In this document: positions 1-37,872 of the stretch, piece after piece
Position numbering within the stretch: the stretch's first letter is position 1
Layout: the number at the start of each line of letters is the position of its first letter
Assembly: GCF_022045235.1 (NCBI RefSeq)
Contig: NW_027266341.1
Span: 58,962,001-59,026,000 of the forward strand
Direction of reading: 5' to 3'
From: Haliotis cracherodii
Lineage: Eukaryota
DNA length: 64,000 nt
Position numbers and translations under genes: made by a program
The notes under the pieces: model-generated
What the model saw: only the letters and a program-made list of their open reading frames with translations
Database searches by the model: none
What the model was told of the DNA's origin: nothing

Positions 1-639
1 TCATTAAACAGGTACTTCAAAGTAAATGCACCATGTTTTATAACATACACCTTCAATCCCCACTTTATGACTTGTTAAAATCCTGTCTACTCCATGTATT
101 AACCATAGTATACAAAACCCAGTTCACAATAATTGGATAACTGGAGATCAAGGCCATAAAACTTACAAATATACAAAAAGGTGACTTATTAAAAAAACAC
201 CAGCTCAGTTGTTACCCCCCTTCTATCTTTTTTATTAGGGTTGTAAAACTAGGTGATTATAATGTGATCATTTGACCCAAGCCCAATTCTTGATCTCTGC
301 TGCTGGGAGCTTGGTGTATATAGTGTGTATCTACTTCAAAGGACTTAACCACTAAGGGGATTTGCTAATTATCCATTCAACTTAATATGCTGATGCTTTG
401 ATCTGAGCTTGGGCAATACAGGTGCAAAGGTGTGTGCAATCAACCCTTTCAGGATTTTGAGTGGAGAGAGCCTTTCTGTAACTTGCAAAGTTCTCATTGG
501 CTGGTTAGATCACCGTGTATTGACAAGGAAGGAACTAAAAGGGTGGAAGGTCCATGTTGGTCATCATTCATTCCTGGAAATAGCAAGAGTTACACATAGT
601 TGACTCACTAAGCAAAACCTTTACAAAGCAGTGTAGTCA

Positions 640-712
640 GTTGGATAGCTGATACCTAGTGTTGGATAACTGATACCAAGTGTTGGATAACCGATACCTA
701 TCTTTGGATAAC
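640..712. repeat. 21-bp minisatellite, ~3.5 copies
   Basis: gttggatagctgatacctagt / gttggataactgataccaagt / gttggataaccgatacctatc / tttggataac in tandem. Confidence 0.8.
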
Positions 713-1889
713 AGCTCCTGTGTTGTATAGCCATGAGAGTCATTGCAGACTGGGAAGGTAAACTTTCGTTTTTTCATTTTTTCAATTTTCAAAATTTTCA
801 AAACAATAACCTGTTCTTCTGAAATGACAGATTTTCAATTTTTCTACACACAATATACTTTTAATGGCCTTATTCTAACTATTTATTAAGCATGGTTAGC
901 TTTAATTAAAATAATGTTTATGGCCTGCACTAATTGATACCTGCACTTACTCAATTATTTTAATTATTATATAAACTATTGTAATCAGTTTACACATTAT
1001 GAAGTAACCACATTATACTCTTCAAAACAAGTTAATGGAATCCTCAAAATATTTAAATACTCTTAAGACATGAATTGAGAAATAGTTAGTTTAAAGAATT
1101 GTTGTACAAACATCACAAGATGATAAGAAAACTTTGAGTACAGCTTAACAATGGCATGAGAAGGATGTTGGTGTGAGGGATTTATCTAGGTATCACCTGA
1201 GACAGGTGTGAGGCAAGGTGAGATGGATTTAACAGGTGCTTGTATGGATTTAGATTATCTCAACACAGTGAATAAAGAACAGGTATCAGGATCATAGATA
1301 ATACAACACTGACCCTTATGGGATAACCTAGTGATATGTCTAAACTGTTAATTATTATGTAAACATCTATTGTATTATGTATTCTATTATGCATAATCTT
1401 ATATTCCAAAAGTCATGCACACCTGCATTAAGGAATCTAATTTTTGTTCACCAAACGCATAATGAAAAATGGTCAGAATAAAATTTGTCATGCATCTATA
1501 ATGCATATTGTCACAATGGTCAGTAAACCCTAGCATGTGTCTCTAGCAAGCTTGACCTCAGCTGACTGTCCAGTGTCTGCACTCTGTAAGCAGTAATGTA
1601 TAACAGCTTAGTGACACTCCTAAACAGTTTTCAGCACATTCAAATTCACAAATTGATACTCCTCAATCCCCATGCCACCTTGCTCATGTGAGAGATTTCT
1701 ATGCCATTTAATTGAATTAGATCACCTATTGAATTTGACAATGAGTGAGTGATTCAACTGATTTGTTTATACAAACAAAAACAAGGTATTGTTTCTTACC
1801 TGACTCAATTTGTTTAAACAAACACCTTGGTATGAGGTCTTGCCCCAGCCAACCAGAGCCAAGCTCTTAACAAGCTTCTATTGTTCCAG

Positions 1890-1966
1890 CCATATTTGGC
1901 AGGAACTGATTGCACTTTTGACACTTACAGCCTATAAATAAGCAGGGTGGAAGCTTGTAGATCAGT
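1890..1966 (+). promoter_or_regulatory. Core promoter of the Ser-rich gene: CArG box, TATA box, Inr
   Basis: CCATATTTGG (CC[A/T]6GG) at 1890-1899; TATAAATA at 1933-1940; TCAGT initiator at 1962-1966, with its A 31 nt downstream of the TATA start; first ATG at 2024. Confidence 0.7.
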
Positions 1967-2023
1967 ACAGTGTTGCCTGATACAATTAACTACTTGTATT
2001 TTGGAATTTTCTGTGACCTGGAT

Positions 2024-5000
2024 ATGATTATGATGGCAAGGAGTACCGAAAGAATACTAGCTCAACTTGAAGGTAAACTATTTAAATTTGAATATGATCT
2101 TGAATTAATGTAAAAAATCAATTAAATCAAATAAATTCAATTTATTGTAAATTTGAAACTGATTCATTTAAAATCTACCTGGAATTTGAGGTAGAAGTAA
2201 AATTTCATCTAATTATGCATATCATCTAATAGGTTTCAAATTAGGATAATAGTAAGGCTGTAGTTGTAACATTAGTTGCCATTGATACCTGTCTTTAGGG
2301 GGATAATTATAGAACATCTGAGTTGCCCCTTCTGTAGTGCTCTAGTTTGCCCCTTCAATGTCAGCTGTCTGTTAATCACCCATAATAGTCGGTCATAGGG
2401 TGAGTGCAAGGCCCCAATTCAGTCGGTCTAATTTTGGTTTCATCACATCTGTTAAAACCAGTAGCATCTGCTCATTAGTATTAAATTTGGACATTGCTGT
2501 TAGGAATTGATTTTTCAAGTGGTTTCACAGGATGCCAGTTTATTTTGATTTCATTTTAAATTTTGAACAAATATGAGTGCTGTTTGACACACAATATTTT
2601 AATATTGTGGTGTTATTTCTTCAAACAAATGTTAGCATAATAATGTTACAATAATTCACTTTTTGAAAATTTATTGTTTTCTCTAACAAATTTGAGTATG
2701 AGATAGTGTTTGATTTACAATATGTAAACAGCCCCAAGTTGGTAGTATAATTAATAGACAGAGATTAGCACTGACAGTGAAATGTTGTTTGAAGTGGAGA
2801 ATACATGAAATATACAATGTCTGATTAGATGATGGAAACAAAAAGTGGTATCAACATGAAAGAGTCAGATTGTTCTTCCTGCTTGATAACATGTCATTTT
2901 CTTGTTGATGTCATGGTGGGTTGTTTAAGAATTTATGACATCGCTAATCCCAGAGCCAGCCGTGAGTAATCCCCGGTAGATAACCCAGGTAGACACAGTT
3001 TGTAAATTACAGATCACACTAATCCACCCTGAACTAAAGACAGTGAAAAACACTGAGAAAATCAAAGCATTGAATGAAAGATAATCAATTAGTGTTGTAC
3101 AATGGGAGAGTTAGTTTCAGTGTCACGGATCTGTATACAGCAGATTGCAACACAATAGGTTAATTGCCTGGGCTCAACCTCCAGACAGCATGGTGAGATA
3201 TATAGACAGCCAAGTGGCATCCCACTCACATTTAAGGCAAGAAGGTGATGCTGCTCACATCAGTCTAACTCGGGCTTGGATCTACCTGTGGTTTTTACCT
3301 ATTTTCACCTGTCCTCCACACCTATGCTGGTTAGCATGTTAATTATGGGGGAATGTGTTGGACTTGTCAGCTCTCACCTGAACCCCGGGATTGTACAAGG
3401 TATATGTATACTTACACCTGCTCTGTAATTGATGGCTGGAGGTTTACAAGGTGTTATGTTATTCTAGAAGGGATTTTACTATCGCCAATTATGTTGTTAC
3501 CTTCACAGGTTTGTGTTGAAATGACAATTATTGGTGCAAGTTTTTACTGGGTCAGCATGTATCTTTGCTCATTTGCAAGTTTGACTTTCCACGAGCAGGT
3601 CATACAAACAAACGAGTGTGGCACATTTATTACTTTGTACTTATAGGCTTACGTTTATTGCAGATTGGTTAGAGTGCACCATGGACACCGATGCCAGCAT
3701 CAATGACCACATGACCTCGGACGAGATGTACATGCAGCTTCAAGCTGATATGGTAAGTCAAATTATCTGTTTTCATGGTATTCTGGCTGAATTTGCATCA
3801 TAAAACTTCCATCACCATCACCATTTCTTGGTCAAAGGGGGGTAACTCTTGATATACATTTTAAGGCTCTTCGATCACTACCCAAGGTCAGTCGCCTGTG
3901 TTGAGTTACTGTTGACTCAAGCAAGTGTTTGCTTGCTTGTGTCACAATGGTCCATTCATCATTTCAACAATGTATCAGGTAGAGTGAATTGCTGTTTGAA
4001 CAGGGTGTATCTATCTGCTTTGTATTGTAGCCTGTCCTTGGTAAATGCAATTTCCTGCTGTACAAAGAGTGATTCCACATTTCATTAAATGCTTCATGAT
4101 TTTCCCATCAGTGGATTTTAAAAACTTTCTAGACTAGGTGTCATCTCTGCATGGTTTCCAATATAAACAATTTGGGTAGGTTTTAAAGGCAAATGGTTAT
4201 ATAATTTGCAGCTCTTTCCCTGTCTCACCCTTTGATAAATTTATAACAACAGACTGCATTGTCTCAAAACTCATATTTTCCGACTTTAATGTTTTCTAAC
4301 TCAATCAAATTTCACTGCCCTGAAGAGATATTCAGAAAGGATTACCAAAATAAATTGACATAAACTTGCTAATTTCTAGAGGACATATCATCAAAGGATG
4401 AGAATTAATTACAGGGAATTTCTCCTGGGAACCATGCCTCTGTATACTTTTCCCTTTACAAAGTTAGTTTTAACAGTTTAGCTAAAACCTGTAATCAACT
4501 TGGGAGTTATTGTTTGAAAGCCTCCCCTCCCTGGCCTGTGAGAGGCTATACAGAAAGCAGGGCCCTGGTCACTACAAAGGTCCCCCACATCTGTCTGGCC
4601 TCCCAGCTTGACCACTCTCACATAATTAGCACACTGTAACATTCTGTCTCCTGACAGGGGCACTGTTTAGGATGAACATTTCCAATTCTCAAATGTGTTT
4701 TCCAACTTCCACATATCAGTCCTTAAATTGTCCTTTGTGGATAATTCAGAAAAAATAATTCTAAAACCAAGGCCCCAGAAGGTTGAAACAGTTTGTAATC
4801 AGTCAAGCAGAACTCCCCACCCCATGAGGGCCCCAGTGGTATAATGAGCAGGGGGCATCTGATTTGCATGTGTATAGCCCTATTGGTCAGTATGAGCTAA
4901 TCAGGATGGCATTGTGAGTTGCACTCAGGCCTGGGCTGTGCAGTGGTCAGTTGCAGAGGCCAGACATAGTGATCTCAACATTATGTACTGTCTGTACCTT

Positions 5001-8000
5001 AAATGGAACACAGGGGAAGTTTGAGCAACAGTTTTCTTCATTTGGATTTTACCTTTGTGACTGGATGTACGAGCTGAGGACTGTGATATTGTGTTCAGGA
5101 AACTGATGACCAATTGGGTCTGTGGGATCAACTGTATATATTCCTTCTGAGCCAGGCTGGGCATTCTTTCTTCTAGCTGTAAGTGTTTCAACAGTGTTGT
5201 ACCTAGATCTGGAAATGGTTTACAGAATTTGTAAGGTAATTGTGATAGAGGGTTGGTGATGGTGGTGACAAGGGATGGCAGCCATCTTATCTGTTTACAA
5301 CTCATCCAAAATGGCTGCCATTCTTTGTTGGTCTCATGTAATGTTATGATGCAGCTTCAGCCTATTTTCTGTTCATTCTTTTTAACATTTCTGTTTCAGT
5401 ATTTTATTTTACTTATTTAGTGTTTTTTGTTGATGCAAAAAATTGTGTATTTGTCAACTAGGACATTTTGTAATTATATTTGCATTTCTTTCTTAAATTC
5501 CTCAGATAAATAAAATCTAAATAATTTTTTTTATTTTCAACAATTCCCTTTGATGTTCAGTGGCCAGAAAGTTCAGTTTTCCCATTAAACTTGCCCTGTC
5601 CAGTCTATTGTAAGGGGTCCACTCGACAATGACATAACCAGCCACTGAAAAAGCATTAGGATTCATGTAGAGAGCCTGTCAGACTGGACTGAGAGGCAAT
5701 AAATCTTGCAGTAGCTGCTTCAGGCTCTTTAACCCTTTACATGCCTATGTCCCCCTTCAGATAAGCACCCCTCAAACCATAGTTGCATTTATGGCCCCAT
5801 TTTACAACCATGTAACCCTGGAAACCAGCCCCAGTCTGACCATGATGTCTGATATACACAATGATAAGATTAAACAGGTCACTGCACAATACTGGCAGGC
5901 CTAATTAAGATTTCTATTTCTTTAAAACCATTTAGACAATTCATTTTATCAAGTAAAAAAGTATTTTTAGAATATTTAAAAGGTAATACAATTTAAATAT
6001 ATAATATTACATAGGTATTTTTCAACGAAATAATAAATTATTTTCCTACTTTTGACATCTAACCAAGTTTTCCAAATTACTGCCACACTTGTTTTGATGC
6101 CATGTTTGACACACACAAACATGTCCAATGAGGGAACAAATGGTAATACTAGGGGCTAATTGGTGACAAGTGGCCTAGAACTGCAACTTGTCAATGGCAC
6201 ACTTAGCACAATGTCCCAGGGTTAAAGACAAAAGAATAGAATCCCCTAATCAGCAGCAAACAAACCCCTGACAGGGCCAGGCTTACATTGTTTAACCCAG
6301 ACAGTATGGCTGCAGGTAGAAAAACATAGGCCTTAGAATAACTCCCTGTCATTGTCCAAGCTTGGACCAATCACACTGTAGTTTTAGTCTGATTAGCACA
6401 GCAAACAGGTTATTGTACACAGGGGATATAATCGGCTGAATTGCCCTGGGTTAGTTTATTTGCCATAACCTTTGGCCATAGGTAAATATTCCCTTAGCTG
6501 TCAAAAGTATAGAATAACATTTAGGTCCCAAGGTCATAAGTAATTGGATTTCAGGGAGTTATGGTAGGAATGGAACTGGTTGTGGTTCTCCTTTAATTAT
6601 TTGATATGAATTAGTTTGTTTTAAACCTATGACATTTGTTGACCTGTTTACTTATTTATTTTTTCTTGATTTCCAGGTAAACATCAAAGCTCAGGAGCAA
6701 GCCCTCCAGTCTGAGATCAGCAACATTAAGTCGAAGTTCACAAATCTGCTCCAGACCTGCGGCCTGGAAGATGAGTTTCCTGTTGATGACAACGTGAAGA
6801 TGTCCACACCAAGAAGGCCAACACTAGCCAACGATGGAACTCCAAGACGCACCAACTTCAACTATGCTGACTTCCTGATAGAACAGCTCCTTGCTGGAAA
6901 TACCCTAACAGACTCTGATCTCTCCATCAGCCCTGAAGACACAAGAAACTCGGCGGAAGTTGAACCTGAGAACCTGAACCATGTTGACTCTTGCAACCTC
7001 CTCAGTGCCAGCACAGCAGCAGTGCCCAACCAGAATGTGTTCCACACAGACAATCACCATGTCACCGTTGCTTCAAACGTGCTCCGCCAGGTCATGCCGA
7101 ACAACATCGATGTCACCACATCCGAGAATGGAGTTGCTACTTCCTCAGACTCTTACCCCCAGTCCTCCTCAGACTCCTCGGATAACCAGGTTGTGCCTGA
7201 TCTTGACCGTGAGAAGGACCTGGATTCTCGCAGGCATTATTATTCAGACTTTACTATTGACAGACAGAGGAAGATCAACCAGCTTCTTATCCAGCTCAAG
7301 CAGAACAACAACACCACCCTCCTCAGCAGGCCAGAGGTTTTCCCAGGCGGTGACAGCTCCGAGCGACTTGTTGAGGGAGCTGAACAGCAAGTGTCCTTCC
7401 GCAAGGTCATGATCAACAGGCGTACCTCCACTGCCAGTTCCAGGTCCAGCGGTACTGACTCGGCCTCTGCATCCAGCACCATGAAGAAATCCAGTCGATC
7501 CACAAGTCGCCGCAATAAGACATCTTCATCTCGGACAATTAGTCACCCACTGATGTCCTCGACCATGATCTCCGACCCCTCCATTGCCATGCCCAGCAGT
7601 AGCTCCAACTCCAGCGTCTACACCTGGTCCATTGATGAGAACTCCGATCCAGCCGACCTCCAGGGCTCCTACATGAGGAGTAGACACAGCCAGCACAAGT
7701 CTCACAGAATCCGCAAGTCGACTTCCAGCACACCCCGAGTGTCTACTGAGCGCAAGCGACGTCACCACCGTCATCGTGAGGCCCCATCTCTCCACCTCAC
7801 CCACATGGTTTCCACCATCGAGACATCCAGCTGCAGCAACCGAGTCTTCGCAGAGAACAACTGTGAGAAACTACCCCGCACCAGTACCAAGACACAGTTG
7901 CCCATCATCAATAACTCTTCCTGGGAGAAGGCCCCCATCCACTCTACATCAGGTGCCGAGTTCTTCAGCATCCAGCCCTCTGATGTCGATGACACTCTGG

Positions 8001-8641
8001 ACTCCTCCCCTCTCCAGGAACGACTTGATCTTCCCGGGAAGTCCAGCTCCAGTGGTAGCAGTGCTGGCGGCCTCATCAACCCCAGCAATACCATGCAACA
8101 AAGTGCTCTGACAACAACAGACTATACCCGTGTGTCTTCCCTGGTGGACTCTTCTCTCATCGACACCGTCCTCACAGACAGCCCAGCCGACTCTGTCAAC
8201 AGCAGTGGCCTCTACGCTCCCTGCAACTCTCCCCGCTACAGCAGCGTCGGCTCTCACTGTGGCTACACCACCGTCAGCAGCAGCGTACCCTCAACTTCCA
8301 GCAACGAGTACAGAGCACCACTGCCGACACCCGCCACAGTCAGACCTGAAGACTCCATCTTCAAGATCCCCCACAGTCCTATTGGGAAGAAGAGGTCATC
8401 GAAGAAGAGCGTGAGCCACAGCCCCAGTGTCCGTACCTCAACACCCCGCCCCCCCTACTCCGGGGGATCAGTCCGCAGTGAGCCTGTCATGAGGAGGAAG
8501 CTGTTCTCTACCGGAGCAGTCGGTGCCACTGAGCACAAGATCTTGGACAAGAAGGCATTGGTCCGCAAGTTCAAGAAGTTCAGTCATCACTTTCACAAGA
8601 GCGACAAGTCGAACAAGATCAAGACCCTCGCCCAGTTGTAA
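2024..8641 (+). CDS. Uncharacterised ~700-aa Ser/Thr-rich, mostly disordered protein (3 coding exons)
   Basis: Exons 2024-2072 (ATG...GAAG|gtaaac, phase 1), 3664-3752 (ttgcag|ATTGG...GATATG|gtaagt, phase 0) and 6677-8641 (ttccag|GTAAAC...TAA). Phases join into one 2103-nt frame: MIMMARSTERILAQLEDWLECTMDT...KIKTLAQL. The 1965-nt open, C-rich exon stands out from the AT-rich flanks. AATAAA at 9039-9044. Confidence 0.85.
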
Positions 8642-9038
8642 ACTGAACAATTTGTGCTCCTGGTTTTAATAGTGCGAATGTGATGTTCACTTGTACAGGA
8701 CATTTGTGAATAGTGTGGTTGTGAGGACAATAGAAGCTGTGGCTTCGAGGTTGTGATTACAAAGAAATTGACTTTGTGTAAATGTTGTGAATAACCATCG
8801 GTGATATTACTTTTCCTGCAATTCCCAGACTCTTTCATTACAATTCCACATTATCATTCAAAACCACAATTACTGTCATTCCCAGTGCAATACAGATTTC
8901 CATGCATACCAAACAGATTCTTGCTCATTGTATAGTGTAAATATGTACATATGTCAGATGAATGCTATTTATTTTCTTGTCAAGAACACAAGAACAGTGC
9001 TACAATATTTTTGATTTCTAGTCAATCAAAATGTCATG

Positions 9039-9044
9039 AATAAA
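9039..9044 (+). terminator. Polyadenylation signal of the Ser-rich gene
   Basis: AATAAA ~400 nt after the stop, followed by a T/GT-rich tract (ttctctttgttttg). Confidence 0.6.
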
Positions 9045-9319
9045 TACAAATCAATTCAAACCATTCTCTTTGTTTTGCTATAATACTTTGGGTGACCAGC
9101 TAATAATTGTCTTTAGATGAAATTTCCATCTTCAATTTCACAATGCTGGTTTTCTAATATCAGTTGGTGTAGTGCCCACTGTGGTCGACTGTAAATAGTC
9201 CTTGGTGGACAAACAAAAGCATGAGTCATGGACCCTGTCATTTGGACAATCTGCCAAACCTCAAGAGGATTGAATACACAATGCCATTTAGAAAGAGGTC
9301 AAATGTAACAAATGTTATA

Positions 9320-9472
9320 TTTGGGATATCACTTTCTTAGTAACAATGTACAGATTCTCATACTTTTTTGGGTTGAGTCCCGTCTGGAATTCGAACCCAT
9401 ACTTGCCAGAGTGAGGCACCTAATCGCCAACGCAGCGATCAGCGATCTAACCCACTCAGCCACCGAGGCTTC
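9320..9472 (-). mobile_element. tRNA-headed SINE (short family E)
   Basis: Minus strand has A-box-like GGTGGCTGAGTGGGTTAG and B-box GGTTCGAATTCC, followed by non-tRNA sequence. Confidence 0.55.
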
Positions 9473-11332
9473 CACAAAATGGAAGTCCGACAACTGGTAG
9501 TCCATAGGGGATTCACATACAACATACAAAGCTGTTAACATTACAAGAGTTTGAAGCAATGTAAAAGTTTCGTCTCTGCAGGAGACATTCATGTTGCCTT
9601 GTGGGTGCAGTCAAGGGCATACAATGTGGTAAATCTAGTTATTTTAAGATAATTGTTATTTTTCAACCACTGACATCGTAAGAACAAAACAATTCTGTAA
9701 ACCAAATACAAACTGCCTATTATATTCACCAGCCCCTACTTTCAAACACGACCTACAAATGCAGTAAACTCCATCCACATCTGACTGAACTATTTATTCA
9801 AACCTACTACAATATCATTAGCATCTATTTCAAATCCCACAATGCTGTAAGGCATTTAAACAAACACACCCAAAACTTGCAAGAACCAAAATGAAAGTAC
9901 CTAATGAAATTACAGAATTAATTTAGCCCATTTCTTCCTCAAGAGCCCTTGAAACCACCTTAGATTTACTTCAAAAGTCCCAGCACCCATCTCAACAGCC
10001 TCCAATCCCCTTCACCCTTTCAGAACCAACTTGCCTGAAGCAAACAAGACAGCCTGATCCAACTTTACCTAATCCTGACACAATGCTAATTCCAACTTCC
10101 CCTGGCCCAACAATAGCCCCACTAGTTTTCTACCAGGCACACAATGAGCTCTCATCTTCCTATAGGCGTTACAATAGGGGCTGGGGGTGCCTGTAGATGG
10201 CAGTACAATAGGGGACTGTCCACAATAAAACTTCCTGTACCTGACAGTGATGAAACTTGCACTGTCACCAGTGTTGTAGATGTGCCACTATCCTGCACGC
10301 CTGACTGTTACACTGAACCCCTACAATGGTATGACATGGTTTGGTTGTTGGGTAACAGGACTGTCTGAATCAGCTCCCTAGTCTGGCTTTCATCTCCTGG
10401 TAGATAAGCTAATCTTGTAGTCTCCTGCTTGAACGCAAACATGTGCTGTGTAACTTGCTAAATTGGAGTTGATAATGTCCATGGTTTTCTTTGAAGCAGT
10501 TTTGCACACAAAGGAATTACTCATGTTAGTTGGGTCATGGTTGATAAATGTTTGAAATCTTTCACACATTTGAAGGTGAGATGATGGCACAGACACACTA
10601 ACCAGTGCAGATGCAGCATGCAGCGGCCATAGCTACAATACATACACAAAGAGGGGCACTACTCCACAAAGCCTGAGATGAAATTCATTACAGGCTATCT
10701 GTTTTCTAAACCAAATGTACCTGATACATAAATCATAGGTTTGAAAGAAGCTTTGGGCTAGTTGGCTATAACTGAGTGTTGGAAATTGGCCCTCATCCTA
10801 TCATCCTTACCAAACTGCCCAATAGTTAGGGATGATAAGGACTAGTAGAAATTAGCCATTTTTAAGGGTTTTGCTATGTTAGCATTATGAGGACTGGTGG
10901 TCTAAAGTGTTGGTTTCTAGTGCTGATAACTCATTGTGTCTTGTACTGCAAATGCAGACATTGAAGCCGGAAAACGCGTTCCTCTTTGCTTGCTAAAATA
11001 TATATATTAGGGGAGTAACCATTGATGAATGCCATTGTCCAGAGTCAAAACATCCACGGCCATTCAAGATCAATAGCTACCCATGGATTTACACTTGTGA
11101 TAGTATTGATGATAACAATAAGAGAAATTACTGCAAATCATTTACTTTTGTATTCAATCCAAAACACATTGCAATAGTTGTACAAGTATAGCAGCAGCAT
11201 ATCACGGTCAGCTTATCATGGCAATAATACTGTGAAATTGATAGCCCCCTAATATCCTGATATCCCATTGAGAAGCAATGCAATAAGAATACAGATTAAG
11301 ATCTGTATCATATTTACAGCAAACACAATGAA

Positions 11333-11486
11333 TACAGAGTAGACACAATTTATGGATAACAACTTCTTTATTTACTGAAAATAGATCCTTATACCACTGC
11401 TTAACAACGGTACAAGGATCTATTCCAAAACATCGTCTTTACAGTAAATATAGCAGTTGTCATCCAAAAATTGGGTCTACTTTGTC
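11333..11486. repeat. Degenerate long inverted repeat (hairpin MITE remnant)
   Basis: cagagtagacacaatttatggataacaact...tttactg pairs with cagtaaa...agttgtcatccaaaaattgggtctactttg. Confidence 0.5.
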
Positions 11487-13596
11487 ATCTGTAGAGAGAG
11501 GTTAACAGAAGGTGAATGTCGCTGGATCTATCAGCTCTAGGTCAGATATCAACATGCACATAATTTATCAGCATTAAATGCTGCTGAAAACTATGCCATT
11601 TTGAAAGAATAATGTTTTCTCTTGGAAACAAGGGGTAATGCAAGCCACTTAGCACCTACCCAATATTCACTGTATCAATGTGAACCTTGGCATATAATTG
11701 TTTTCTAATTATTCTTGGTAATGCCTTTGTTTCAAGGGATTTGGATAATGACTATAGTGAAGAGGCGTGATGTGGTCAGATAAGTCTTGATCATTTTGGC
11801 TCTTACGGTGGACAAGTGAAATCTTCTAAAAAGATATTTAAAAATGGGTAAAAGATACTAAAACATAATGATTGTTTTTATTGGAAATTAAAATACTGAA
11901 GCACACTCTTAAGAAAATCCTTTACATGTCTTTCAAAAATTGCAATTACGGTATAATGTGCCACTCTGGCAGGTGGCAGAGGGATTATCTAGTGGCTAAT
12001 CTGATTACACTTCCCCGACAGTGCCCCTACACAGGTGACAAATGGAACACTGCCCCTACACAGGTGACAAATAGAACGCCATCCCAATATAGGTGACAAA
12101 TAGAACACCATCTCAACACAGGTAGCACAACAAATATCAGATTTTGTCCATGTCTTGCAGGTCTACAAACAGCAAGGTATGTTTCAGTTCATCAATTCTT
12201 ATGTCTGTACAACACTAACAGACCGATTGTATTTCTAATTGTACCTAGAACTGTAAGTTTTAGTGTTCAACGTGAAATCGGGAAACACATAAAAAATTGA
12301 ATAACATACCCTATAAAATTGTGTCATGATTTCCCTATTCAAAGTTAAAACATGTCTAACAAGCCCGATGCCTGTCATATAAACATTCAATGAGACGCCC
12401 GTATCAGGATTATTGGGAAGAACGGCCCCAGTACCCAAGCTTATTCCCAGAGTTGACTGGTGCCATGGCCAACTGTGTGTAGTGCTGTTGCTCATGATGT
12501 CAACCACTGGTTTGTCTGACCCAGATCTGATTACTTACCATTATGTAGGCGATGTATGTCTGACGGATGAACAAAGCACATTCACTTCAAAGATCCGTAA
12601 AATCATGTAACAACCTATTCAAAACCTTACAGACCCCTTCTGATTCCCATAATTCAATCATGTTACTCATCAAATACTTGTCTCTGACGTTTGTCTAATT
12701 CAAGCATTTACCACACCAAGACTCAAGAGAGGACATACAATAACTGTAATTAAAGTTCAGGGCACAAGTTTCATTATTACACAACACTTACAAGTTCAGC
12801 CAACTTTATTTCATGATGTTGTTTTACATATCATAAACTTAATGAGTAGTGAAGGACTAGTACCCTCATTATGATGGAGGAAACAAGAGCAGGGAAACCC
12901 TGAACCATAGACTAACATCTAGTCTCTGAAATGAACATATCGCACAGAAAAAAACAGTTGTTCAGTTATCTTAATAAAAATATAACAAAAGGGAGCCCAG
13001 TGACTCTCTTCATTTTCAGATACTGCTGTAATCTAACTTGCCAAACATTATAGACTTGCATGGGCTGTATTTGATATATATTTGTATCAGGGTCTGTAAG
13101 ACAGACTTCCTGAAACACCGAGCTGAGTCAATGGTCCTGAGGATGCAAGTAGTTCTGAAACTAGCTTGATCATCACCGTCAATACAGAAATCTCACCATC
13201 ACCTGGGAATACATACAACTGATTTGCGGTGTAGTTGCTATTTTTAATCAACAAATCAAGTCATTTAGGAAAAATATATTACCCAATAATGAAAAATAGT
13301 TTTGTTAGATAAATAAGTCTACCAAAATTAAGGAGATTGGCATCTCAGACAGATTGAGTTGCTCAAGTCAACGAAGATGGATATTGTAACTGGTGGCGAG
13401 GGGACAACAGCTGCACATTTCTAAGGACATTAACTCTGTAATGAAAGTTTGCAATTCATTTGGTTTGGGCACATTGTCAATGCAATTGCCTAGGAATTTG
13501 GTTCAACCCCTTGGAACAGTACTTCAGTTACGTTATGGAGTGTCAGCTCAATGTGGGCGGAAAGCCTGAAGGGAGGCAGGCCTTAGTTACTACAAC

Positions 13597-14939
13597 TAGG
13601 GCTGGGACGGGTAACTCGGGTCAGGTGGGTACTGAGTAGGACCCGGGTACCCACAGGACTACCCTGACCCGTGGTTAGTCACCTGATAAAAATTATCTAG
13701 AACTCTATGGTTACACTACAAGTCACTAATGTTTGGATTTGTTTCTGACTATGCACCATTCCTTCTGACTTTTATATGTTTGAATAAAGAATAAGATTCT
13801 GTCAAATTCAGTGGATGCATGGCCAGATCGTTCTATACGTGTATCTAAGTGCATTTTGCTTGGGCTAAAGTCAATCGACTCCAAATTGGATATTTTGTTC
13901 CTATCTCTTGAGACCGACACCTGGTAGGGTAGGTTAGTAGGGTGTTGGGTAAGGGTGAAACGATACACAGATATTCCGATGCATCGCGATACTTGACCCA
14001 CGATACGATATACGATACACGTGGGCCCATTTATCGATACGCCACGATACGGAATGCAAATCTCAAGTAAAGCGTTTCCTCGCTATTGTGCCTTTCAATA
14101 AACCGCTAAATTGGTTATAGCGCGCGGTAACGCATGGCTCCCCAAAACGTACTTACATTTTTAATAAGCTCAGGTTTTACACCGACATGTTTTTCCCCAT
14201 CTCAAAAAACATTATCAGCTGATCCCCGCAAGCACATAACACCGGAAATACCTGTCAGCAAATCCGAACTGAAGTACGCAATTAAATACGATTACTATAC
14301 TATCTTGTTATTAAAACGTGTTCATTATATATCTGGACTTGTGTTTGTAATATATTTTATTAATTTTATTCAAAATTTCATTTAATATTTTTTTCATTAA
14401 GTTATGCGAAATCGTGTGTGAAGAGATACTGCAACCACGGTCAGATTACCGCTTTTGACGTATTGAAACGAACTTTAGTTGCTAGAGAATGGATACATAT
14501 ATTAAAAATGCCATACTTTGACTCCTTAAAAGTCATGTGTGTGGCAATTTGGCGAATATATGTCAACATAAGGTTTTCGCAATCGAAATACATGTAGCAC
14601 GGGAAGTCCCTAGGGTGACTGATCAAATTGTTCCATACGTAAAAATATCCTGCATTAATTATTTTCTGGTGTTTGAACTTTGAATTGTTTTTAAGGAAAG
14701 TTAGAGAAAGTTCCAACTTCAGTAGTCTTGTTATTATAAAATAATTTTGACTGTTCCAAAATCATGAAAGGTTCAATCTTGACATGCTTTAAGTCTTGTT
14801 TTATTTATCATTGCATATCGAGATACGTATCGTATCGTGACCAGAATATCGAGATGCGTATCGTATCGTGACCTTCCTGTATCGTTGCAGCCCTAGTGTT
14901 GGGTACCCGAGTAGTAAATTTGGACTTGTCCAAGCCCTA
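13597..14939. mobile_element. Non-autonomous hAT-type DNA transposon, interrupted by a nested element
   Basis: TIRs TAGGGCTGGGAC / GTCCAAGCCCTA; 8-bp TSD ACTACAAC / ACTACTAC; same family at 17484-17870 and 61446-61864. Confidence 0.8.
13950..14895. mobile_element. Non-autonomous hAT-type element nested in the previous one
   Basis: TIRs TAAGGGTGAAACGATAC / GTATCGTTGCAGCCCTA; subterminal CGATAC/GTATCG repeats; perfect 8-bp TSD GTGTTGGG (13942-13949, 14896-14903). Confidence 0.85.
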
Positions 14940-16097
14940 ACTACTACCCATACAGACCGTTCCCAACACAGACATTTCCCAACTCAGACAATTCCCCGCA
15001 TTCCTGAGGCTAGTGAGCTAACTGACTGTAAAAGTCCCGTTTCCCCCCTTGCTGATCTAGGCTGTACCAGGACATGTGCCTGTAGTAGGGAAACACAAGC
15101 AGGGGTGTAAGACAGGAGAGGGGGCACATTAGCATGTATGTATGAGGGTTGTACTAACATGGATGTGAGTGACAGTGGGGGTAGGGGAAGAGGGAGTATG
15201 CTGGTTATACAGATAAACAGTGAACACATTTCTATAAGTGGATAGTGCAATGATGGGATTAAATTGCGTACTTCAATTCGGATTTGTTGACTGGTATTTC
15301 CGGTGTTACGTGATCGCGTTGATCAGCTGATAATGTTTTATGAGATGGGGAAAACATCGTGTCATTGGAAAACTTGAATTTATTAAAAATGTAAGCAAAT
15401 TTTGTGAGCCATGCTTTACCGCACGCTATAACCGAGTTAGAGCTTTATTGAAGAGCGCAAAAGCGAGGGAACACTATATAGCATATAGTGTAGGAAATAT
15501 AACTGGATATAAATGTTTATATCATCATATAACTGGATCAGTTTGACCTGTATGTTATATATTGTCTGTGCATGTTGAACAGAATTCAGGTCAAGGAGAT
15601 GCATGAAAGGAACATACCTGTGAGATTGTATTGTAATGTAGTGTAAATGTTGTGTAAAATGGTATCAACTGCTACCCTACAATATTTGAATGTGGCCGGG
15701 CGCCACCCACTGAAGTGTAACTGGCATGTAATTGTACCTGAACTTGAACAGCATGTGACATCTTAATAAATTAATTTTCTTCTTTTACTTCCGTAAATAT
15801 GTGCACAGGCTGTTGGGAGGGAAGTCAGTTGCTACACTGTGCATCCATTTTAATAACTTCCTGTCTGATGCTAATCCTGACTCAGCCTAGCTGTCAGCTG
15901 TTGGCGCAATTACCTCAAGATGTCACTAACGAGTCATGTGTCAAACTCACCTGTGCAAGGTAGATGTGTGATCATTAAGGTGAGACAATTAGTGTACCGA
16001 TGCAACTGTAGTGTCTGTGACATTCACCATGATGGTCACTTGGGGTCAAACGGAATAGTTACAGTAAAATATACATGGCTCATGAAAATGGTAGTGA

Positions 16098-16305
16098 CTG
16101 AGTGGGTGGGTGGGTGAGTGAGTGAGTGGGTGGGTGGATGGGTGGGTGGGTGGGTGGGTGGATGGGTGGATGGGTGGGTGAGTGAGTGAGTTGGGTCCAA
16201 CGTCTCTTTGAACAGTTACATCAAAGTGTGTCAGCTTGATGTGGGAGGAAAACCTGAAGTGATGCAGGTCTCTGACATTAACCACTTTGGTGAAACCCAC
16301 AAGCA
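16098..16305 (-). mobile_element. 3' part of SINE family D with an expanded (GGGT/GAGT)n tail
   Basis: Matches the 36613 family (tgtcagcttgatgtgggaggaaa...gatgcaggtctc); the tail is expanded into a tetranucleotide microsatellite. Confidence 0.65.
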
Positions 16306-16657
16306 TGGACCAAAGACAGAAGTGTATTCTCTGTACTCATGAAGTTATTCACGTTGTTCCCTTTGGAATTGAGCCCAAAAGTAGAACACTTCTGACCATC
16401 CTCAACATCAATGAATGTGTTTACACCATGGGCAAGATAATAGGCCGTTGTACTAACGAAAGAAAGTGTGCACCCTTTACACTTTCAATTTTTGAATTCC
16501 CAGCTTTCTTTAAACTGGTTCTTCATCTTCCATGTTTTAATCCTTATTAATTCTCAGAGTTCATTTATAAGTGACTTCAAATACCTTGTAATACACAAAG
16601 TCACAAGTTATTTTTGTTAAGAATATGTGATGTCTAAGTGTGGTCTTTAGACACCAG

Positions 16658-16764
16658 GGCCCCATTCCACAAAGTGATCTTAGCGCTAAGTCGATCGTAA
16701 CTCCCATTCTTTAACACTGACTTACGACAATTGTAGCGCTAAGATCGCTTTGTTGAACGGGGCC
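16658..16764. mobile_element. ~107-bp palindromic MITE, PIF/Harbinger-like
   Basis: ggccccattccacaaagtgatcttagcgcta...tagcgctaagatcgctttgttgaacggggcc; 3-bp CAG on both flanks; second copy at 23943-24049. Confidence 0.7.
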
Positions 16765-17270
16765 CAGGATCTTATTTAACTGTGCCAAGGAAGTTCAAAA
16801 CCTGAAAACATATGAATTGGTAAATAAAATTCAACACCCCTGATGCAAATTTCTTATCTGTGTCAAACAGGCACTAGCCATCACTGAAAGATAGCCAGGG
16901 GTTGAGGGACTATATAATTTAACGTATATTGAATCACATGTATCACAAAAGTAATGCTTGACACAACGAAATTTGTGGAATTCATCGAATCCATGGAAAA
17001 TTCTCATCCCTGCAAATTGGCAATCCAGCTCATCTCAGGCCAATTGGACTATGGCCGGCACTGGCTTGAAACAATACAGGAACTAGTTTAGTTGTGTTCT
17101 ACAAACTAAATGCGGCAGGATCTGATGTTACATGGCTTACAGGTAATTGATGCAATACCACTGCTCCACCGCAGCAGGAGGTATTATGTAGGTAGCCTAA
17201 CAATCAGACCATAGTGTCTAGTGAAGGCACCTTGGTGAGTTATCTCCCCTGTTTCCATGACAGCACTTAC

Positions 17271-20200
17271 CGGCATGAGGTATTGCTTGTATTTGTTGTG
17301 GACCTTCTCCCTGGTTTTGGGGTCCTCTGGGTAAAGAGTCTTCTGTACCAGCGCCAGCAGCATCTCTCTCTTCAGCTTCATCGCCAGCTGGGAGTTGAGG
17401 TCCACCTCAGATGTCTGCAGGCAACAAAACATACTTGGGAAGCATGCTTTACATTGGAGGGTTTTATAAATATAGATTCAAACTAGGGCCGGGATTTACT
17501 ACCCTGGTACCCAACACCCTATTACCCGACCCTACTTGGGTACCGCTATAGGTCTCAAGAGTTGGGTATGAAATGTCCGAAAGGGAATTCGTTTCCCCGC
17601 TAAAACTATTTAGATACACAAATAAAATGATCTGATCATGCATACGCTGAAGTTGATAGACGCTTTATCCTTTATAAAACTTTATAAAAGTCAGAATGCT
17701 TGCATAGTCAGAAAGAAATGTGAACATGCGCTATACTTGTAGAGTAACCTTGGAGTTTTATTGTTAATGTCGTTTAACAATATATCATGTGACTAACCAC
17801 GGGTCCGGGTAGTCCTGTGGATACCTGGGTGCTACTCAGTACCCACCCGACCCGGGTACCCGAGTTACCAAGTTATCAAGGCTAATTTCTCTTCTTGTTT
17901 TGTGGAAGAGACAATTCCAAATTTGAATAAGATCAAGAGCACCATTGCAGTCATGGGGCAATTGAACCCGAGACTTTGGCATGACAAGTTAACGCCTTAC
18001 CCACATGGCTACCTCTGCACCACAGGATTAGGGAATAAGTGAGTGTGGTTTTACGCCACTTTTAAGCAATATCACGGCAGGGGACACCAGAAATAGGCAT
18101 CACACATTGTGAGGTAAGGTGAAATGGGGTTTAACATCGCGTCCAAGATTATTGCACTTATATAGCGACGTGCATGTTCGTGTGTGTGTTTGTGTGGCTA
18201 CTTGTACTAGTTCGGACTGATGCCGATTTATAGTGCTAGCTCACTGAGATACCATGCCGCAGTTTAACATGAATACCCCACTCAGACACAGTATACTGAC
18301 TCCGAGCCAACCAGTCCTTGTTTTAGCCCCTTTATGCCGAGCGCCAGACAGGGTAACAACAAGTACCATCTTTTAATGTCTTTTGGTATGACGCGGCCGG
18401 GGATAGAACCCTGGACCTTCCGCTCTCCGGGCGGTCGCTCGACCACTAGACCACGGAGAAGATCACAGTCAAGCAGCTTAACAACAGTGCAGTGTTTACC
18501 TTCAGTATGTAGTGATCAAACCCATACACCTCATCGATCAGGTCGAGGGTGCGGAGGGTCACCTGGATCTCGAAGTACTTGTCAAGGATCTCGCTATATA
18601 GAACCCGCTTCGTCAGGTACGGACGCCAGATTTTGGGGATTCTGAAATGCAAAATAGTTTTTTCAAGCGAAGTCTTGGGAAGTGGCCAGTTCGAAACAAG
18701 TTCTGTAAAAAGCTTGAGAAAGCTGCTTTTTGATCATGCTGATTGGTTAATGTCCACAAATTTTACTCTTGTGTCCAATCCATTGGGTTTTGTACACTGA
18801 TAAGTAGACATTTTTAAAAGTTAATCTACTTCTATGCTGTTTCAGGCAACTTCTAATTAGCGTATGTTGGTGTGCTGCTCCAAGCAAACCACATAACAGT
18901 GATACATGTCTAGGTTACAATAAACGAGACGTCGCATATTGTATACAGGATGCCTGTATTCAGGCAGTGAGACAACATCTGTAAAGACATGTATGCAAGC
19001 TGAAACAGCAACTCAAGGTAATTACGCAGTGTTGTCTTACTATTTATCAAATGTCTCCATATGTATTTGAATGCAAGAAACTCAAAAATGGGCTATGGTG
19101 ATTTAGTATGATTATTTTTGTTTGTTGTTTAACACTGCCCTCAGCAAAATTCCAGCTACATGACAGCGGTCTGTAAATAATCGAGTCTGGACCAGACAAT
19201 GCAATGATGGACATCATGAGCATCAATCCACGCAATTGGGATACGATGACATGCATCAACCAAGTTAAGAAGCCTGACCACCAGATCTTGTTAGTTGCCT
19301 CGTATGACAAGCATAGTCGCCTTTTACAGCAAGCACAAGTTGCTGAAGATCTATTCTAACCCGAGTATTCATGGTGTGCTTGTGTTTTTTTACTCAAGCT
19401 TATCTGGGGCTCTGAAGTATGCAAAGTTTCCTCCATATCACAGTGACCTCTTGTAAAACTTGTCCCCACTGAAATCGGATGGACTGACGTGACATGACTA
19501 CACTATGGCAGCATGTATGTCTCGACCAGATGAATTGTGGTTGATTAATTGTGTGAGTGAGTATTGTTTTACGCTGCTTTTAGCAATATTCCGGTAATAT
19601 CACAGCAGTGGAATATAACAGGCAAGCAGGTCACACATAGCAACCCTCCTTGTGGTACTCCTCAGGGTCTATTCTGCCTCAAGACATCCACTGGGGAATA
19701 GCTGGGCATCACAGCAAACTGTATAGTTCAGTAGTGCTGTGTGTACTAACGAGTACTGGGCTTACGACAGCTGAGATCAATGGGCCCATTCAGTGAACTA
19801 TTTATATGTACCAGGTTTGAATAAGTCTTTTTGAGTATTTGTGTGTCTCAAATTTTACAAAGAGAAATAACTGATATAATATGATACCCAAGCGGATTAT
19901 ATGGATTTTCATTTTTGTATAAAACCAGAAATAGGTTTTCGTACAGTAACCTCTTCTCTCAGTACATAATTCTGCCACATGTCTACTCTCGTCAGTGGCT
20001 AACATATACACTGACCTGACATCTTCCCGAGGCAAGGGAGTTAACCAACTATAAAAGTCCAGTTTCCACCCTTGCCGAACTAGGCTGGAATTATGGAGTT
20101 ATATTTTGGCTATACATAGCCCAATTAAAATCGATTAATGAAATCAACATCCAATTTGTAAACTGACATCCAGATTTCAGTCGATTTCAGGATTTGCAGG

Positions 20201-23200
20201 GCATGTGTACCGATAACTTAGCGTTGACATATATATTCCCAATCTTTTCATGTTTTTAATCAAGGTACTCACATGATTTGATACACTTCGAGAAGTAAGA
20301 TCTGTTTCATTACAATGAAGATCTTAAATATTGATCAGATCGTCTTAACTGAGGCATCGCCATTATGTTTAAAGCAAGTGACGTGATAGGTGGAATCTGA
20401 CTGGTCAGTAGGAGGGGCATAGAAGGGACATAACAGCCACTGGTGGCGCTATGGTCAAGCTTTGAAATTCCAGCCAGGGTGTAAAATGGACATTTACGGT
20501 CAGTCAGCTCCTTTGCCTCAGGGAGACGGTGACCTGCAAGACAAATCCCAGCAATCATGACCAGTGGAAATCATAAAATAACAGCCTCCTTCTCAAAGGA
20601 ATAACTTGAAAGTTTTGTCCTGTAAACATTCTTTGGGACTCCAAAGGGATGTAACTCTGCACAGCAAATTGCAGCACCTTGGAGGACTGGGCCTACCGGT
20701 ATTTGTTGAACCCAGTTTCACTGCAAACCCGGTTTGGGATGTACAAACCTAGAAGCAAAGCGCCGGTCACTCTTCCGGTAGCCGACCACCAATCCCTCGC
20801 CCCCCCACAGACCCTTGTTGCATTCCTCGGGGTACACCACCTTCACGGGGACGTTCTGCACGCGCTCACTGAAACAGACACACAGTGCAGATATTTACTG
20901 ACTTGCCATACATCTTGCTTCTTAGACTCATACACCAAGAAGTAAGACACAAACAAAATGAACCAATTCAAACATGACCTTGAGATCTTGTTGATAGAAA
21001 ATTCTACGGCATAAAAATGTAATATTTGGAAAAGGAATGTTGATTATAAGGTTAATTATTTTGAGGGATTGAACATAGCTGGTCAGAAATGTGTTGCAAT
21101 ATGCAGTGACTGTATTGTGATTGGTATCGATGCTGGGGCTGGAATTTTGTATCGAGATTAGACATATTTTCAGCTTCAGCTGCAAAACCAGATATTTCAG
21201 TTTGGCAAGGGAGGAAACTGGACTTTTATAGTCAGTTAACGCCCTTGCCTCGAGAAGATGCAAGCATTAGTAATGTGCTATTCTTTCTGTTCATGGAAAA
21301 CAAAGGTAACTACAAATTTTAGACCAGAGAAAAATATGGGATTAACCTTTCATATTTCACTGAAGAGTTGTGACAGAAGCTCTAAGATCTATTTGGGGAA
21401 CAAGGCCAAGTAAAATACCTGCAATGCAGCACATCCCCAACATACATTCTAAACAGAAAATGCCAGGAAGTGAATGAGGTGTCAGAATAGAAACATCTTG
21501 CACTTTGATACACACTTAAGTAAGACATTTCCAAGACAGATTTGTGGCATCGGGCCCCTGTCCAGTCAAACTGTCAGCAGAAAAATGTCCAATCTCATTT
21601 AAATCAGATCTAAGTTCTCGCTGCCGCTAAACAAAAATCTGACGACATCCCATTACGGGTCACGTCAGAATGACCTTTTGCGAACTTTGACCGACCACTG
21701 AAATGACTAACAAGAAGTCGACACCAGCCAATTAGAAAGTAGCTTTCTCGAGCTTTACGGTACTCATTTCAACCTGACGACTTCCATTTTGACTACGCTT
21801 GAAAAATATGTTGACACAGTTCTCGATTAAAATTTTGAAAACTGAACAAACGAACATTCCAGAATGTCCAATATATGGTTGCGATTGTATGGCAGTGCTT
21901 CCCACGTACTATGCAACGTCTCCTCCATTCAAATGTTTATCCCACGGGAGCAAGAGATAGACGATAACTTTGACGGAATCAGTCGTACAGGCCGTAACTG
22001 TCGTTCGGAATACCCCGTTTTAACGTTTTCGAGATTGTATGATTAGAAAACACATTCCAACTGTCACTTGCATGATCTGGTAAGCGACGCTTTGATTGGT
22101 TGGATGTAAGGTCGTTCTGACGTGACCCGTAATGGGATGTCCTCAGATCTTTGTTAAGCGACAGCGAGAACTAAGATCTGATTTTAATGAGATTGAAAAA
22201 TGTCATAATTCCCTTGTAAAGTTTCCATGCACAGACTGACTCTATAGTGAAAAGTGTGGCGCCAGTTTTACCGTTTCCCTGTGTTGGGGTTCAGCTTGAA
22301 TGGCCCTTGTTCTGGCTGCCAGTGTACAGCTGTAGGTTCACCCTGCATGAACTCCATACACCGGCGCTTGTAGTGAGCCGGGAGCAGCTGATGGGCCTCC
22401 TTGGACAACACGTACTTGTACGCTGCATTTCCTGAAATAATGCAGTACACTTTATAATATCCGTCTCCAGAGTCATGGAGTGGAGAATCACTGGTACATT
22501 TACCCTTTTTCAATTCTAGGGCTGGGATGATATAGCAACTGTGTGATCCAATATGTGAGGTGAGATGAGGTGAGGTGAAATTGGGTTTAAAGTCGATCAA
22601 AGATTATTGCACTTATATAGCGATGTCCATGCATGTGTGTGTGTGTGTGTTTTAACGTCGCGTCCAAGATTATTTCACTTATATAGTGATGTCCATGCAC
22701 GTGTGTGTGTGTGTGTGGCTGCTTGTACTAGACCGGATTGATGCCGATTTATAGTGCTAGCCCTCTGAGATACCATGCCGCAGTTTAACATGAATACCCC
22801 ACTCAGACACAGGATACTGACTCCGAGCCGACACGTCCTTGCTTTAACCCCTTAATGCCTAGCGCCAGACAGGGTAACAACAAGTACCATCTTTTAACGT
22901 CTTTTGGTATGATGCGGCCAGGGATCGAACCCCGAACATTCCGATCTCCGGGCAGACGCTATACCACGGAGAAAGGTGATTTTTTAACCTTTGGCTTTGT
23001 TTTGAAAAGTATGAAAGCTTGCTTTTTAAAGGCCTGGTTTATCTGTAGACACATGTAGCATACAATATTGACATCACTTTGATGCATGAGAAAACAAGAA
23101 AAACAATTTTGGGTCGGGTGCTTCAGACATAAATGGCCAGGAAACCAGGAGACACATTTTGGGGGACCAATTGTAAAACATGTATACAGATGTTTTATCA

Positions 23201-36612: not shown

Positions 36613-36890
36613 GGGGGGCACGGGTGGCCCAGTCGTCTAAGGCGCAGCGATTCGCTGTGCAGAGTTGCGTCCCTTGGGCACGCCAGAAACCTATGATTGC
36701 GGGTTCGAATCCCGGTTCGCCCCGATTATGTTTCTAGATTTGTCAGCACCATGCCCGTGCTCATGGGTTTCACCGAAGTTGTTAACGTCTGAGACCTGCA
36801 TCATTTCGGGCTTTCCTCCCACATTAAGCTGACACGCCGCGATATAACTGGAATACTGTTAAAAGTGGCGTTAAACCAAACTCACTCACT
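36613..36890 (+). mobile_element. Full-length tRNA-headed SINE family D
   Basis: A box GGTGGCCCAGTCGTCTAAGG, B box GGTTCGAATCCC, TTTCCTCCCAC core, tail GGCGTTAAAC(ACTC)n; TSD cacaacaat; other copies at 38950-39205(-), 40939-41216(+), 52095-52385(+) and 53367-53610(-). Confidence 0.85.
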
Positions 36891-37736: not shown

Positions 37737-37872
37737 GTGGAGGCAGGTGGATGTCTTCCTAAACTTGGACCCTCTTCGAAGTTCTCTCTTCCTCTCTTGA
37801 ACTCAACTGTCCACATTAACAGTGACAAAGGAATGACAAACAGCATGTCCACGTCGATGTCTGTTGGAGATA

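What the first reader, a model, noticed from the sequence alone, without database searches (positions are those of the whole stretch)
1..17270. Orphan 700-aa gene probably nested antisense inside the last intron of MRPL28
Seen: MRPL28's last visible exon ends at residue 197 (...YLMP|gtaagt). Known: animal MRPL28 continues with a conserved EEAEW[VIY]GL...EA..KQ segment (~60 more aa in human). I scanned 1-17270 by eye for a minus-strand (E/D)-W-x-G-L exon and found none. Inference: the terminal exon lies left of position 1. The whole + strand gene (promoter ~1900 to polyA ~9050) would then sit in a >17-kb intron of a housekeeping gene on the opposite strand, with possible transcriptional collision or co-regulation.
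Basis: partly seen in the sequence, partly recalled or inferred. Interest (0 to 1): 0.7.

Follow-up and report, generated by a model that had tools for sequence, protein, structure and literature searches.

The report
Mollusc gene nested inside mitoribosome gene
In abalone, a gene for an unstudied protein predicted to be mostly unstructured sits backwards inside a 64,000-base intron of a mitochondrial ribosome gene, and database records place the two genes side by side in several snails and a freshwater mussel, so the arrangement is likely very old.

Summary
The nesting is real; "orphan" and "last intron" are wrong. The next MRPL28 exon (EEEAEWVGL) lies 46.7 kb left of the window. Eight exons translate to the annotated 268-aa Haliotis cracherodii bL28m exactly. 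The host intron is the 5th of 7 and 63,966 bp long; the others are 3.9 kb or less. Single contigs in 3 of 4 laid runs join the two flanking exons. The plus-strand gene lies wholly inside it and has several first exons, one left of the window. It is not an orphan: the named relatives are all gastropods and bivalves. The protein has no significant Pfam match, is predicted mostly disordered, and keeps short motifs (C-terminal TLANL in 30 of 33). In 10 of 11 other species with both genes on record they share a scaffold length; 6 of 11 have consecutive accessions, including a bivalve. Same-intron nesting there is inferred, not shown. Best reading: an old antisense nested gene in a passive housekeeping host, encoding a likely motif-based intracellular adaptor. 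No evidence for or against collision or co-regulation. A known kind of arrangement with an undescribed protein family.

The parts
26313..26337 (-). MRPL28 (bL28m) coding exon 1, start codon
   Evidence: tblastn of P0024; the 8-exon model is identical to P0024
22272..22431 (-). MRPL28 exon 2
   Evidence: AG/GT ends
20749..20868 (-). MRPL28 exon 3
   Evidence: joint 18641-20749 in 4 of 4 runs
18500..18641 (-). MRPL28 exon 4
   Evidence: joint 17414-18500 in 4 of 4 runs
17271..17414 (-). MRPL28 exon 5, ends ...YLMP, phase-0 donor GTAAGT at 17270
1..17270 (-). In-window part of MRPL28 intron 5 of 7 (63,966 bp in all), host of the nested gene. It continues 46.7 kb left of the window. Outside the window on G000:C78, minus strand: exon 6 (EEEAEWVGL...) 58915172-58915304, exon 7 58911993-58912017, exon 8 coding part 58911366-58911423. 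Also outside, plus strand: the nested gene's first coding exon A at 58956251-58956284 (start of the NCBI 695-aa model)
   Evidence: bridged by single contigs in runs X5, X9, X11
1933..2072 (+).
   Evidence: sequence; only low binned depth
3324..3399 (+). Alternative first exon C (matches the start of H. rufescens isoform X1)
3664..3752 (+). Shared exon 2 of long isoforms, first part of the N-terminal helix
4895..5178 (+). Alternative 5' exon D, spliced to 6677 in one contig of run X1 and covered by a separate contig in X9; would give a short isoform starting at Met 6800
5215..5235 (+). Alternative first coding exon E (matches the start of H. rufescens isoform X4)
6677..8641 (+). Nested gene, large last coding exon (654 aa + stop), Ser/Thr-rich, ends KTLAQL
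   Evidence: 19 of 20 listed differences in related-abalone contigs are synonymous
8642..9052 (+). 3' UTR with AATAAA at 9039; contigs end at 9017-9052

Best explanation
A protein-coding gene lies on the opposite strand wholly inside the 64-kb fifth intron of abalone MRPL28; it encodes a protein predicted to be mostly disordered that likely acts as an intracellular adaptor through short conserved motifs, and MRPL28 is likely a passive host. SHOWN: exon map, splice across the intron, nesting, purifying selection, family in gastropods and bivalves, alternative first exons in annotated isoforms. INFERRED: (a) the pair has been linked since the gastropod-bivalve ancestor (about 0.9) and nested in this same intron (about 0.7); (b) the pair stays together because the nested gene's several first exons and about 40 kb of upstream DNA all lie in the host intron, so only a clean transposition could separate them (about 0.55); (c) the protein binds partners through motifs (YYSDFTIDRQ helix pair, SVYTWS, ILTDSP, FKxP, a basic helix, a free C-terminal TLANL) and promoter choice adds or removes the N-terminal helix (about 0.6). 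The partners are not identified.
For: Model identical to annotated bL28m, introns 3881, 1403, 2107, 1085, 63966, 3154, 569 bp. Same-length, same-depth contigs map contiguously to exon 5 and exon 6 in X5, X9, X11. No other Pfam-recognisable frame (0 of 82 frames of 75 aa or more) and no Rfam match in the intron. Linkage: 10 of 11 other species share a record length, 6 of 11 have consecutive accessions. MRPL28 models of H. rubra and Solemya velum stop just past the homologous donor. The family tree needs the minimum 3 changes for 4 named mollusc groups. AlphaFold: 517 of 695 residues under pLDDT 50, six short helices. Motifs kept: FKxP 33 of 33, [VI]YxW[ST] 33 of 33, last five residues TLANL 30 of 33. 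H. cracherodii vs H. asinina identity is 94.7% for this protein and 87.3% for bL28m.
Against: No coordinates were seen for any other species, so neighbour and nested cannot be told apart there. In Saccostrea cucullata the two proteins compared sit on records of different length (1,235,737 vs 757,363). Two clam-like metagenome loci show no MRPL28 exon in their short flanks, which neither supports nor refutes. Run X1 did not show one contig across the intron. The runs are only guessed to be RNA and come from related abalones. No enhancer or conserved non-coding element was tested. The motif patterns were read off the alignment, so their shuffle controls are partly circular. No partner, localisation or expression pattern is known.
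Confidence: 0.6

Rival explanations
1. Functional coupling: bursts of nested-gene transcription collide with, or trigger early polyadenylation of, MRPL28 transcripts and so tune mitochondrial ribosome output; this is why the pair is kept.
For: Convergent overlap, deep linkage. Nine AATAAA hexamers lie on the host strand in 9053-17270 (no chance control run). Nested genes can affect hosts in C. elegans (PMC12274878, abstract and Discussion read).
Against: In Drosophila nested pairs are less co-expressed than neighbours and co-regulation is judged unlikely to fix them (PMC3814207, section 6 read; PMC5174743, passages read). Full-length spliced MRPL28 contigs and nested-gene contigs occur in the same runs, though these are bulk samples.
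Confidence: 0.15
2. Nesting is recent and limited to abalones; elsewhere the genes are only neighbours.
For: Only H. cracherodii was mapped base by base. The S. cucullata records differ. Most nested genes arise by insertion of young duplicates (PMC5174743, abstract).
Against: Turning a neighbour into a nested gene needs a local rearrangement. The Solemya MRPL28 model breaks at the same donor. MRPL28 carries the lower number in all 4 GenBank accession pairs, as a host would in positional numbering (three are Biomphalaria, and RefSeq pairs go both ways, so this is weak).
Confidence: 0.2
3. The protein is specifically a cell-cycle regulator, a CDK/Plk1 substrate with a cyclin-docking motif.
For: [RK]xLF near the C-terminus in 24 of 33 (shuffled mean 0.94) and STP in 32 of 33. 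Reading these as cyclin and Polo-box docking motifs is recalled knowledge.
Against: The motif is missing in all 7 rows of the heterobranch clade and 2 others; STP has a shuffled mean of 18.6 of 33; full CDK sites number only 0-2 in the 6 proteins counted.
Confidence: 0.12
4. It is a secreted mucin- or adhesin-like protein, as the automatic database names say (mucin-4-like, mucin-5AC-like, FLO11-like).
For: Source names; 17.7% Ser and 8.3% Thr.
Against: No Pfam family for P0002 and no mucin or adhesin family among the 7 weak matches over 22 members. Names differ between orthologues, as expected from composition-driven naming. Several isoforms start with polar or basic sequence (by eye, no signal-peptide predictor run).
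Confidence: 0.04

Closest known systems
Synapsin-TIMP nested pair (PMC2825198, passages read)
   Same: A gene nested in reverse orientation in a host intron and kept over very long times.
   Different: SYN-TIMP spans cnidarians to humans and both proteins are characterised. Here the range found is gastropods and bivalves, the guest is uncharacterised, and nesting is shown in one species only.
polq-1 / ceh-10 opposite nested pair of nematodes (PMC12274878, abstract and Discussion read)
   Same: Housekeeping-type host with an opposite-strand guest, conserved across one phylum.
   Different: The guest there is a homeobox factor with a measured effect on host transcription. No such data exist here.
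Genomic regulatory blocks with bystander genes (Irimia et al. 2012, PMC3514665, passages read)
   Same: Conserved microsynteny; an unrelated housekeeping gene with one very long intron.
   Different: The partner is not a known developmental regulator and lies inside the intron. Conserved non-coding elements and enhancers are untested.
Typical Drosophila nested genes (PMC3814207, PMC5174743)
   Same: Opposite strand (71.3% of D. melanogaster nested genes), small guest, long host intron.
   Different: Typical guests are younger and evolve faster than hosts. This one is old, appears single-copy (C-terminal query), and within Haliotis is more conserved than its host, although less so against Gigantopelta (54.4% vs 61.2%).

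Membership tests
Opposite-strand intron-nested protein-coding gene | All exons of the guest lie within one intron of the host | tested here: met
   All mapped guest exons (-5749 to 9052) lie within -46695..17270; further unmapped non-coding 5' exons cannot be excluded
Opposite-strand intron-nested protein-coding gene | Host transcript splices across the guest | tested here: met
   Contiguous record coordinates on exons 5 and 6 in 3 of 4 runs
Opposite-strand intron-nested protein-coding gene | Guest is on the other strand, spliced and under coding constraint | tested here: met
   Plus-strand frame, spliced contig 5178-6677, 19 of 20 listed differences synonymous
Orphan gene | No homologues outside the narrow lineage | tested here: not met
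   Relatives in Gigantopelta, Patella, Babylonia, Aplysia, Elysia, Biomphalaria, oysters, scallop, ark shell and unionid
bL28m / MRPL28 (host) | Full-length homology to annotated bL28m | tested here: met
   Spliced model identical to P0024; 532 of 764 candidates at E<=1e-20, many carrying PF00830
Genomic regulatory block (Irimia 2012) | Conserved microsynteny of unrelated genes | tested here: met
   10 of 11 species share record length, 6 of 11 consecutive accessions; indirect proxy
Genomic regulatory block (Irimia 2012) | [quoted passage not shown] | tested here: met
   63,966 bp against 3,881 bp for the next longest intron
Genomic regulatory block (Irimia 2012) | Target is a developmental transcriptional regulator | tested here: inconclusive
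   No known domain; function unassigned
Genomic regulatory block (Irimia 2012) | Conserved non-coding elements and enhancers in bystander introns | not testable with these tools
   No other mollusc genome or chromatin data on hand; motif counts near the promoters were not convincing after multiple testing
Mucin / FLO11-like adhesin (automatic names) | Recognised mucin or adhesin domains | tested here: not met
   None among 22 members scanned against Pfam
Mucin / FLO11-like adhesin (automatic names) | Signal peptide | not testable with these tools
   No predictor available; N-termini vary by isoform

The most novel reading that the evidence does not exclude
An undescribed mollusc-specific regulator with a near-invariant C-terminal TLANL docking motif has stayed inside the same MRPL28 intron since snails and clams split, and is kept there because its transcription throttles full-length MRPL28, coupling a regulatory programme to mitochondrial ribosome supply.
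Probability: 0.12. Interest if true: 0.7.

Novelty: new member of a known kind. Interest (0 to 1): 0.4.

Why it matters
Antisense nesting alone is common. What lifts this case is its likely age and the guest: a disordered protein family with no domain assignment, misleading automatic names and strongly kept short motifs, which points to a conserved mollusc regulator that my searches did not find described. It would add a phylum-level example to the few old nested pairs I found in the papers read, and gives a defined locus to test why such pairs persist. Practically, the long intron probably explains truncated MRPL28 gene models in H. rubra and Solemya velum.

Tried and rejected
Function by similarity: Pfam gave nothing for P0002 at E<=1 and only weak scattered matches over 22 members. 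The PDB sequence search gave one match at E=0.053. Foldseek on the low-confidence model gave none at E<=0.001. ESM Atlas gave one lead at 0.81, a level shuffled proteins reach a third of the time, and no usable hit for residues 596-695. Homodimer test of residues 24-75: no answer, score 0.02, no evidence either way. Paralogues: the C-terminal 63 aa found only this locus in G000 (loose first look). Other genes in the intron: 0 of 82 frames matched Pfam (short exons could be missed); no Rfam match in L002-L006 or window 1-27000. Direct nesting test elsewhere: 2 of 496 pattern-matched metagenome stretches were relatives, with flanks too short and no MRPL28 exon. No holder run was on record as RNA. 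E-box, K-box and CSL motif enrichment: not convincing after multiple testing. Literature: no paper held any of 6 orthologue ids; no listed paper held YYSDFTIDRQ or SDFTIDRQ, and TLANL/KTLAQL hits were unrelated by title (15 of 28 listed); no listed paper combined MRPL28 with nesting or molluscs (top 15-20 rows seen). The four text supplements of the spiralian-motif paper PMC7441323 held none of 5 motifs; sequences not held as text could still include the gene. Earlier scan notes: nothing on this locus; one unrelated nested pair.

Full report
Setting. The window is G000:C78:58962001-59026000. The plus-strand protein and the MRPL28 exon each hit, at 100% identity, NCBI proteins named Haliotis cracherodii on a record of 61,937,186 bases, the length of C78. 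Negative coordinates below are genome position minus 58,962,000.

The missing exon. The only minus-strand match left of 17300 is at -46696, reading EEEAEWVGL after a TTCCAG acceptor. tblastn of the annotated 268-aa bL28m placed further pieces near -49980 and -50580. Eight exons with GT/AG introns translate to that protein letter for letter; the introns are 3881, 1403, 2107, 1085, 63966, 3154 and 569 bp. None of five MRPL28 exons tested has a second copy in the 164 kb. The host intron is therefore the fifth of seven, not the last, and 16 times the next longest.

The splice is used. I laid 4 of the 24 listed runs; they are Logan contigs only guessed to be RNA, from related abalones. In X11 one 1318-nt contig (depth 37.2) maps by record 637-781 to window 17270-17414 and by record 505-638 to exon 6. 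X5 (1317 nt, depth 145.7) gives 509-653 then 652-785. X9 (1075 nt, depth 80.6) gives 299-443 then 442-575. I matched records between the two calls by length and depth. In X1 the listed pieces were two separate contigs, so 3 of 4 runs show the bridge. Joints to exons 7 and 8 appear in 4 of 4 runs.

The nested gene. The large exon 6677-8641 encodes 654 aa. Contigs cover it and end at 9017-9052, near AATAAA at 9039. Of the 20 listed differences in this exon, 19 are synonymous (324 further table rows across the stretch were not shown). The NCBI model begins at -5749. H. rufescens has five annotated isoforms that differ only at the start; three of these starts map to -5749, 3324 and 5215, and one begins at the internal Met at 6800. 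One X1 contig splices 4998-5178 to 6677. All mapped exons fall inside intron 5. About 40 kb lies between exon 6 and the first mapped guest exon. In the whole intron, 0 of 82 frames matched Pfam and Rfam found nothing.

Not an orphan. The word-index search gave 22 proteins (including its own) among 7,977 scored candidates. phmmer over 1.84 billion representatives gave 26. Every named member is a gastropod or bivalve; many members are unnamed. A quick tree of 33 members separates named bivalves, heterobranchs and the abalone-Gigantopelta-Patella group with the minimum number of changes; one long-branch unnamed row (P0017) falls between the groups. A clam-like genomic locus shows the large coding exon opening at the same position.

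Linkage in other molluscs. No other mollusc genome could be read, so I compared accession numbers and record lengths. Eleven other species had both proteins on record. Consecutive accessions: H. rufescens (XP_046362849-53 / 854), Gigantopelta aegis (XP_041358578 / 579), Babylonia areolata (XP_076446945 / 944), Biomphalaria glabrata (KAK6975942 / 941; KAI8798067 / 066), B. pfeifferi (KAK0046002 / 001, 1.57-Mb record) and the bivalve Potamilus streckersoni (CHS0354_039594 / 039593, 0.97-Mb record). Same record length only: H. asinina (accessions 6-7 apart), Aplysia californica (2.06-Mb record), Crassostrea virginica and Magallana gigas (chromosome scale, weak). Different: Saccostrea cucullata (1,235,737 vs 757,363; the other 4 members of that cluster were not looked up). 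Patella, Mizuhopecten, Ostrea, Tegillarca and Elysia had only the guest among the rows seen. Two MRPL28 models, H. rubra and the protobranch bivalve Solemya velum, end shortly after the homologous ...P|V junction, as a read-through of this donor does here. Adjacency back to the gastropod-bivalve ancestor (Cambrian, over 500 million years; date recalled) is well supported. Nesting in the same intron is a reasonable inference, not a result.

What the protein looks like. AlphaFold with 22 sequences gives mean pLDDT 48.3, 517 of 695 residues under 50, and helices at 30-68, 104-114, 219-231, 236-251, 367-381 and 666-682. Across 33 members of 612-1575 aa, short blocks persist in one order: an N-terminal helix, YYSDFTIDRQ-type (30 of 33), PxASST-type (33), [VI]YxW[ST] (33), ILTDS (32), FKxP (33), a basic helix (33) and terminal TLAx[LF] (32; exactly TLANL in 30). 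The patterns were drawn from the alignment, so the shuffle values only show that they are not compositional. Within Haliotis the protein is more conserved than bL28m (99.4 vs 98.1% against H. rufescens, 94.7 vs 87.3% against H. asinina), but less so against Gigantopelta (54.4 vs 61.2%). Pfam, PDB sequence, Foldseek and ESM Atlas searches named no family. Conserved short motifs in a disordered chain with a fixed free C-terminus are, by general knowledge, the pattern of intracellular adaptors and regulators. Short isoforms would lack the N-terminal helix. I commit to that reading at about 0.6; the partners are unknown.

Why the pair persists. My best reading is structural lock-in with a passive host: the guest's several first exons and a long upstream region all sit in the intron, as in the bystander arrangement of Irimia et al. 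(PMC3514665, passages read). Two features of that arrangement are met (conserved linkage, long intron); the others could not be tested or were inconclusive. Drosophila studies find nested pairs less co-expressed than neighbours (PMC3814207, abstract and section 6; PMC5174743, abstract and passages). A C. elegans study shows that a guest can induce a short host transcript, which its authors favour reading as a by-product (PMC12274878, abstract and Discussion).

Verdict. The arrangement is a new member of a known kind, closest to SYN-TIMP (PMC2825198, passages) and polq-1/ceh-10. My searches found no description of this pair or family; subscription papers and unseen supplements could hold one. 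Interest 0.4: a confirmed, probably ancient nesting around an undescribed protein family, without evidence yet of functional coupling.

Noticed in passing
window 8936-8951 and 8966: Two tandem Pumilio-type elements (TGTAnATA) in the nested gene's 3' UTR (reached in 2 of 500 shuffles; one of 7 patterns tried) and one AU-rich element; a weak hint of a short-lived mRNA (motif labels recalled).
   Followed up: partly
H. rubra P0025 and P0067; Solemya velum P0108: Truncated or split MRPL28 gene models; P0025 and P0108 end just past the donor homologous to window 17270, probably annotation failures at the long intron.
   Followed up: partly
L012:1593-1618: A 25-bp MRPL28 micro-exon included in all 4 runs.
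   Followed up: yes
L006:150-1589 (MRPL28 intron 6, left of the window): A 507-bp inverted repeat at 92% identity, like the ends of a non-autonomous DNA transposon.
   Followed up: no
window about 47800-48600, minus strand: Frames resembling a Tc1/mariner transposase, split over two frames (identification recalled, not searched).
   Followed up: no
window about 50570-52250, plus strand: Frames resembling cytochrome P450 exons of a neighbouring gene (identification recalled, not searched).
   Followed up: no
L004:5698-7369 and L003:5570 to L002:2015: A tandem array with a period of about 62 bp and several local duplications of up to 1.5 kb inside the 64-kb intron.
   Followed up: no
bivalve members P0006-P0010, P0013, P0020, P0022, P0042: The PxASSTMI-type motif is present once in abalone but repeated two to four times in bivalves, which suggests a tunable binding repeat.
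   Followed up: no
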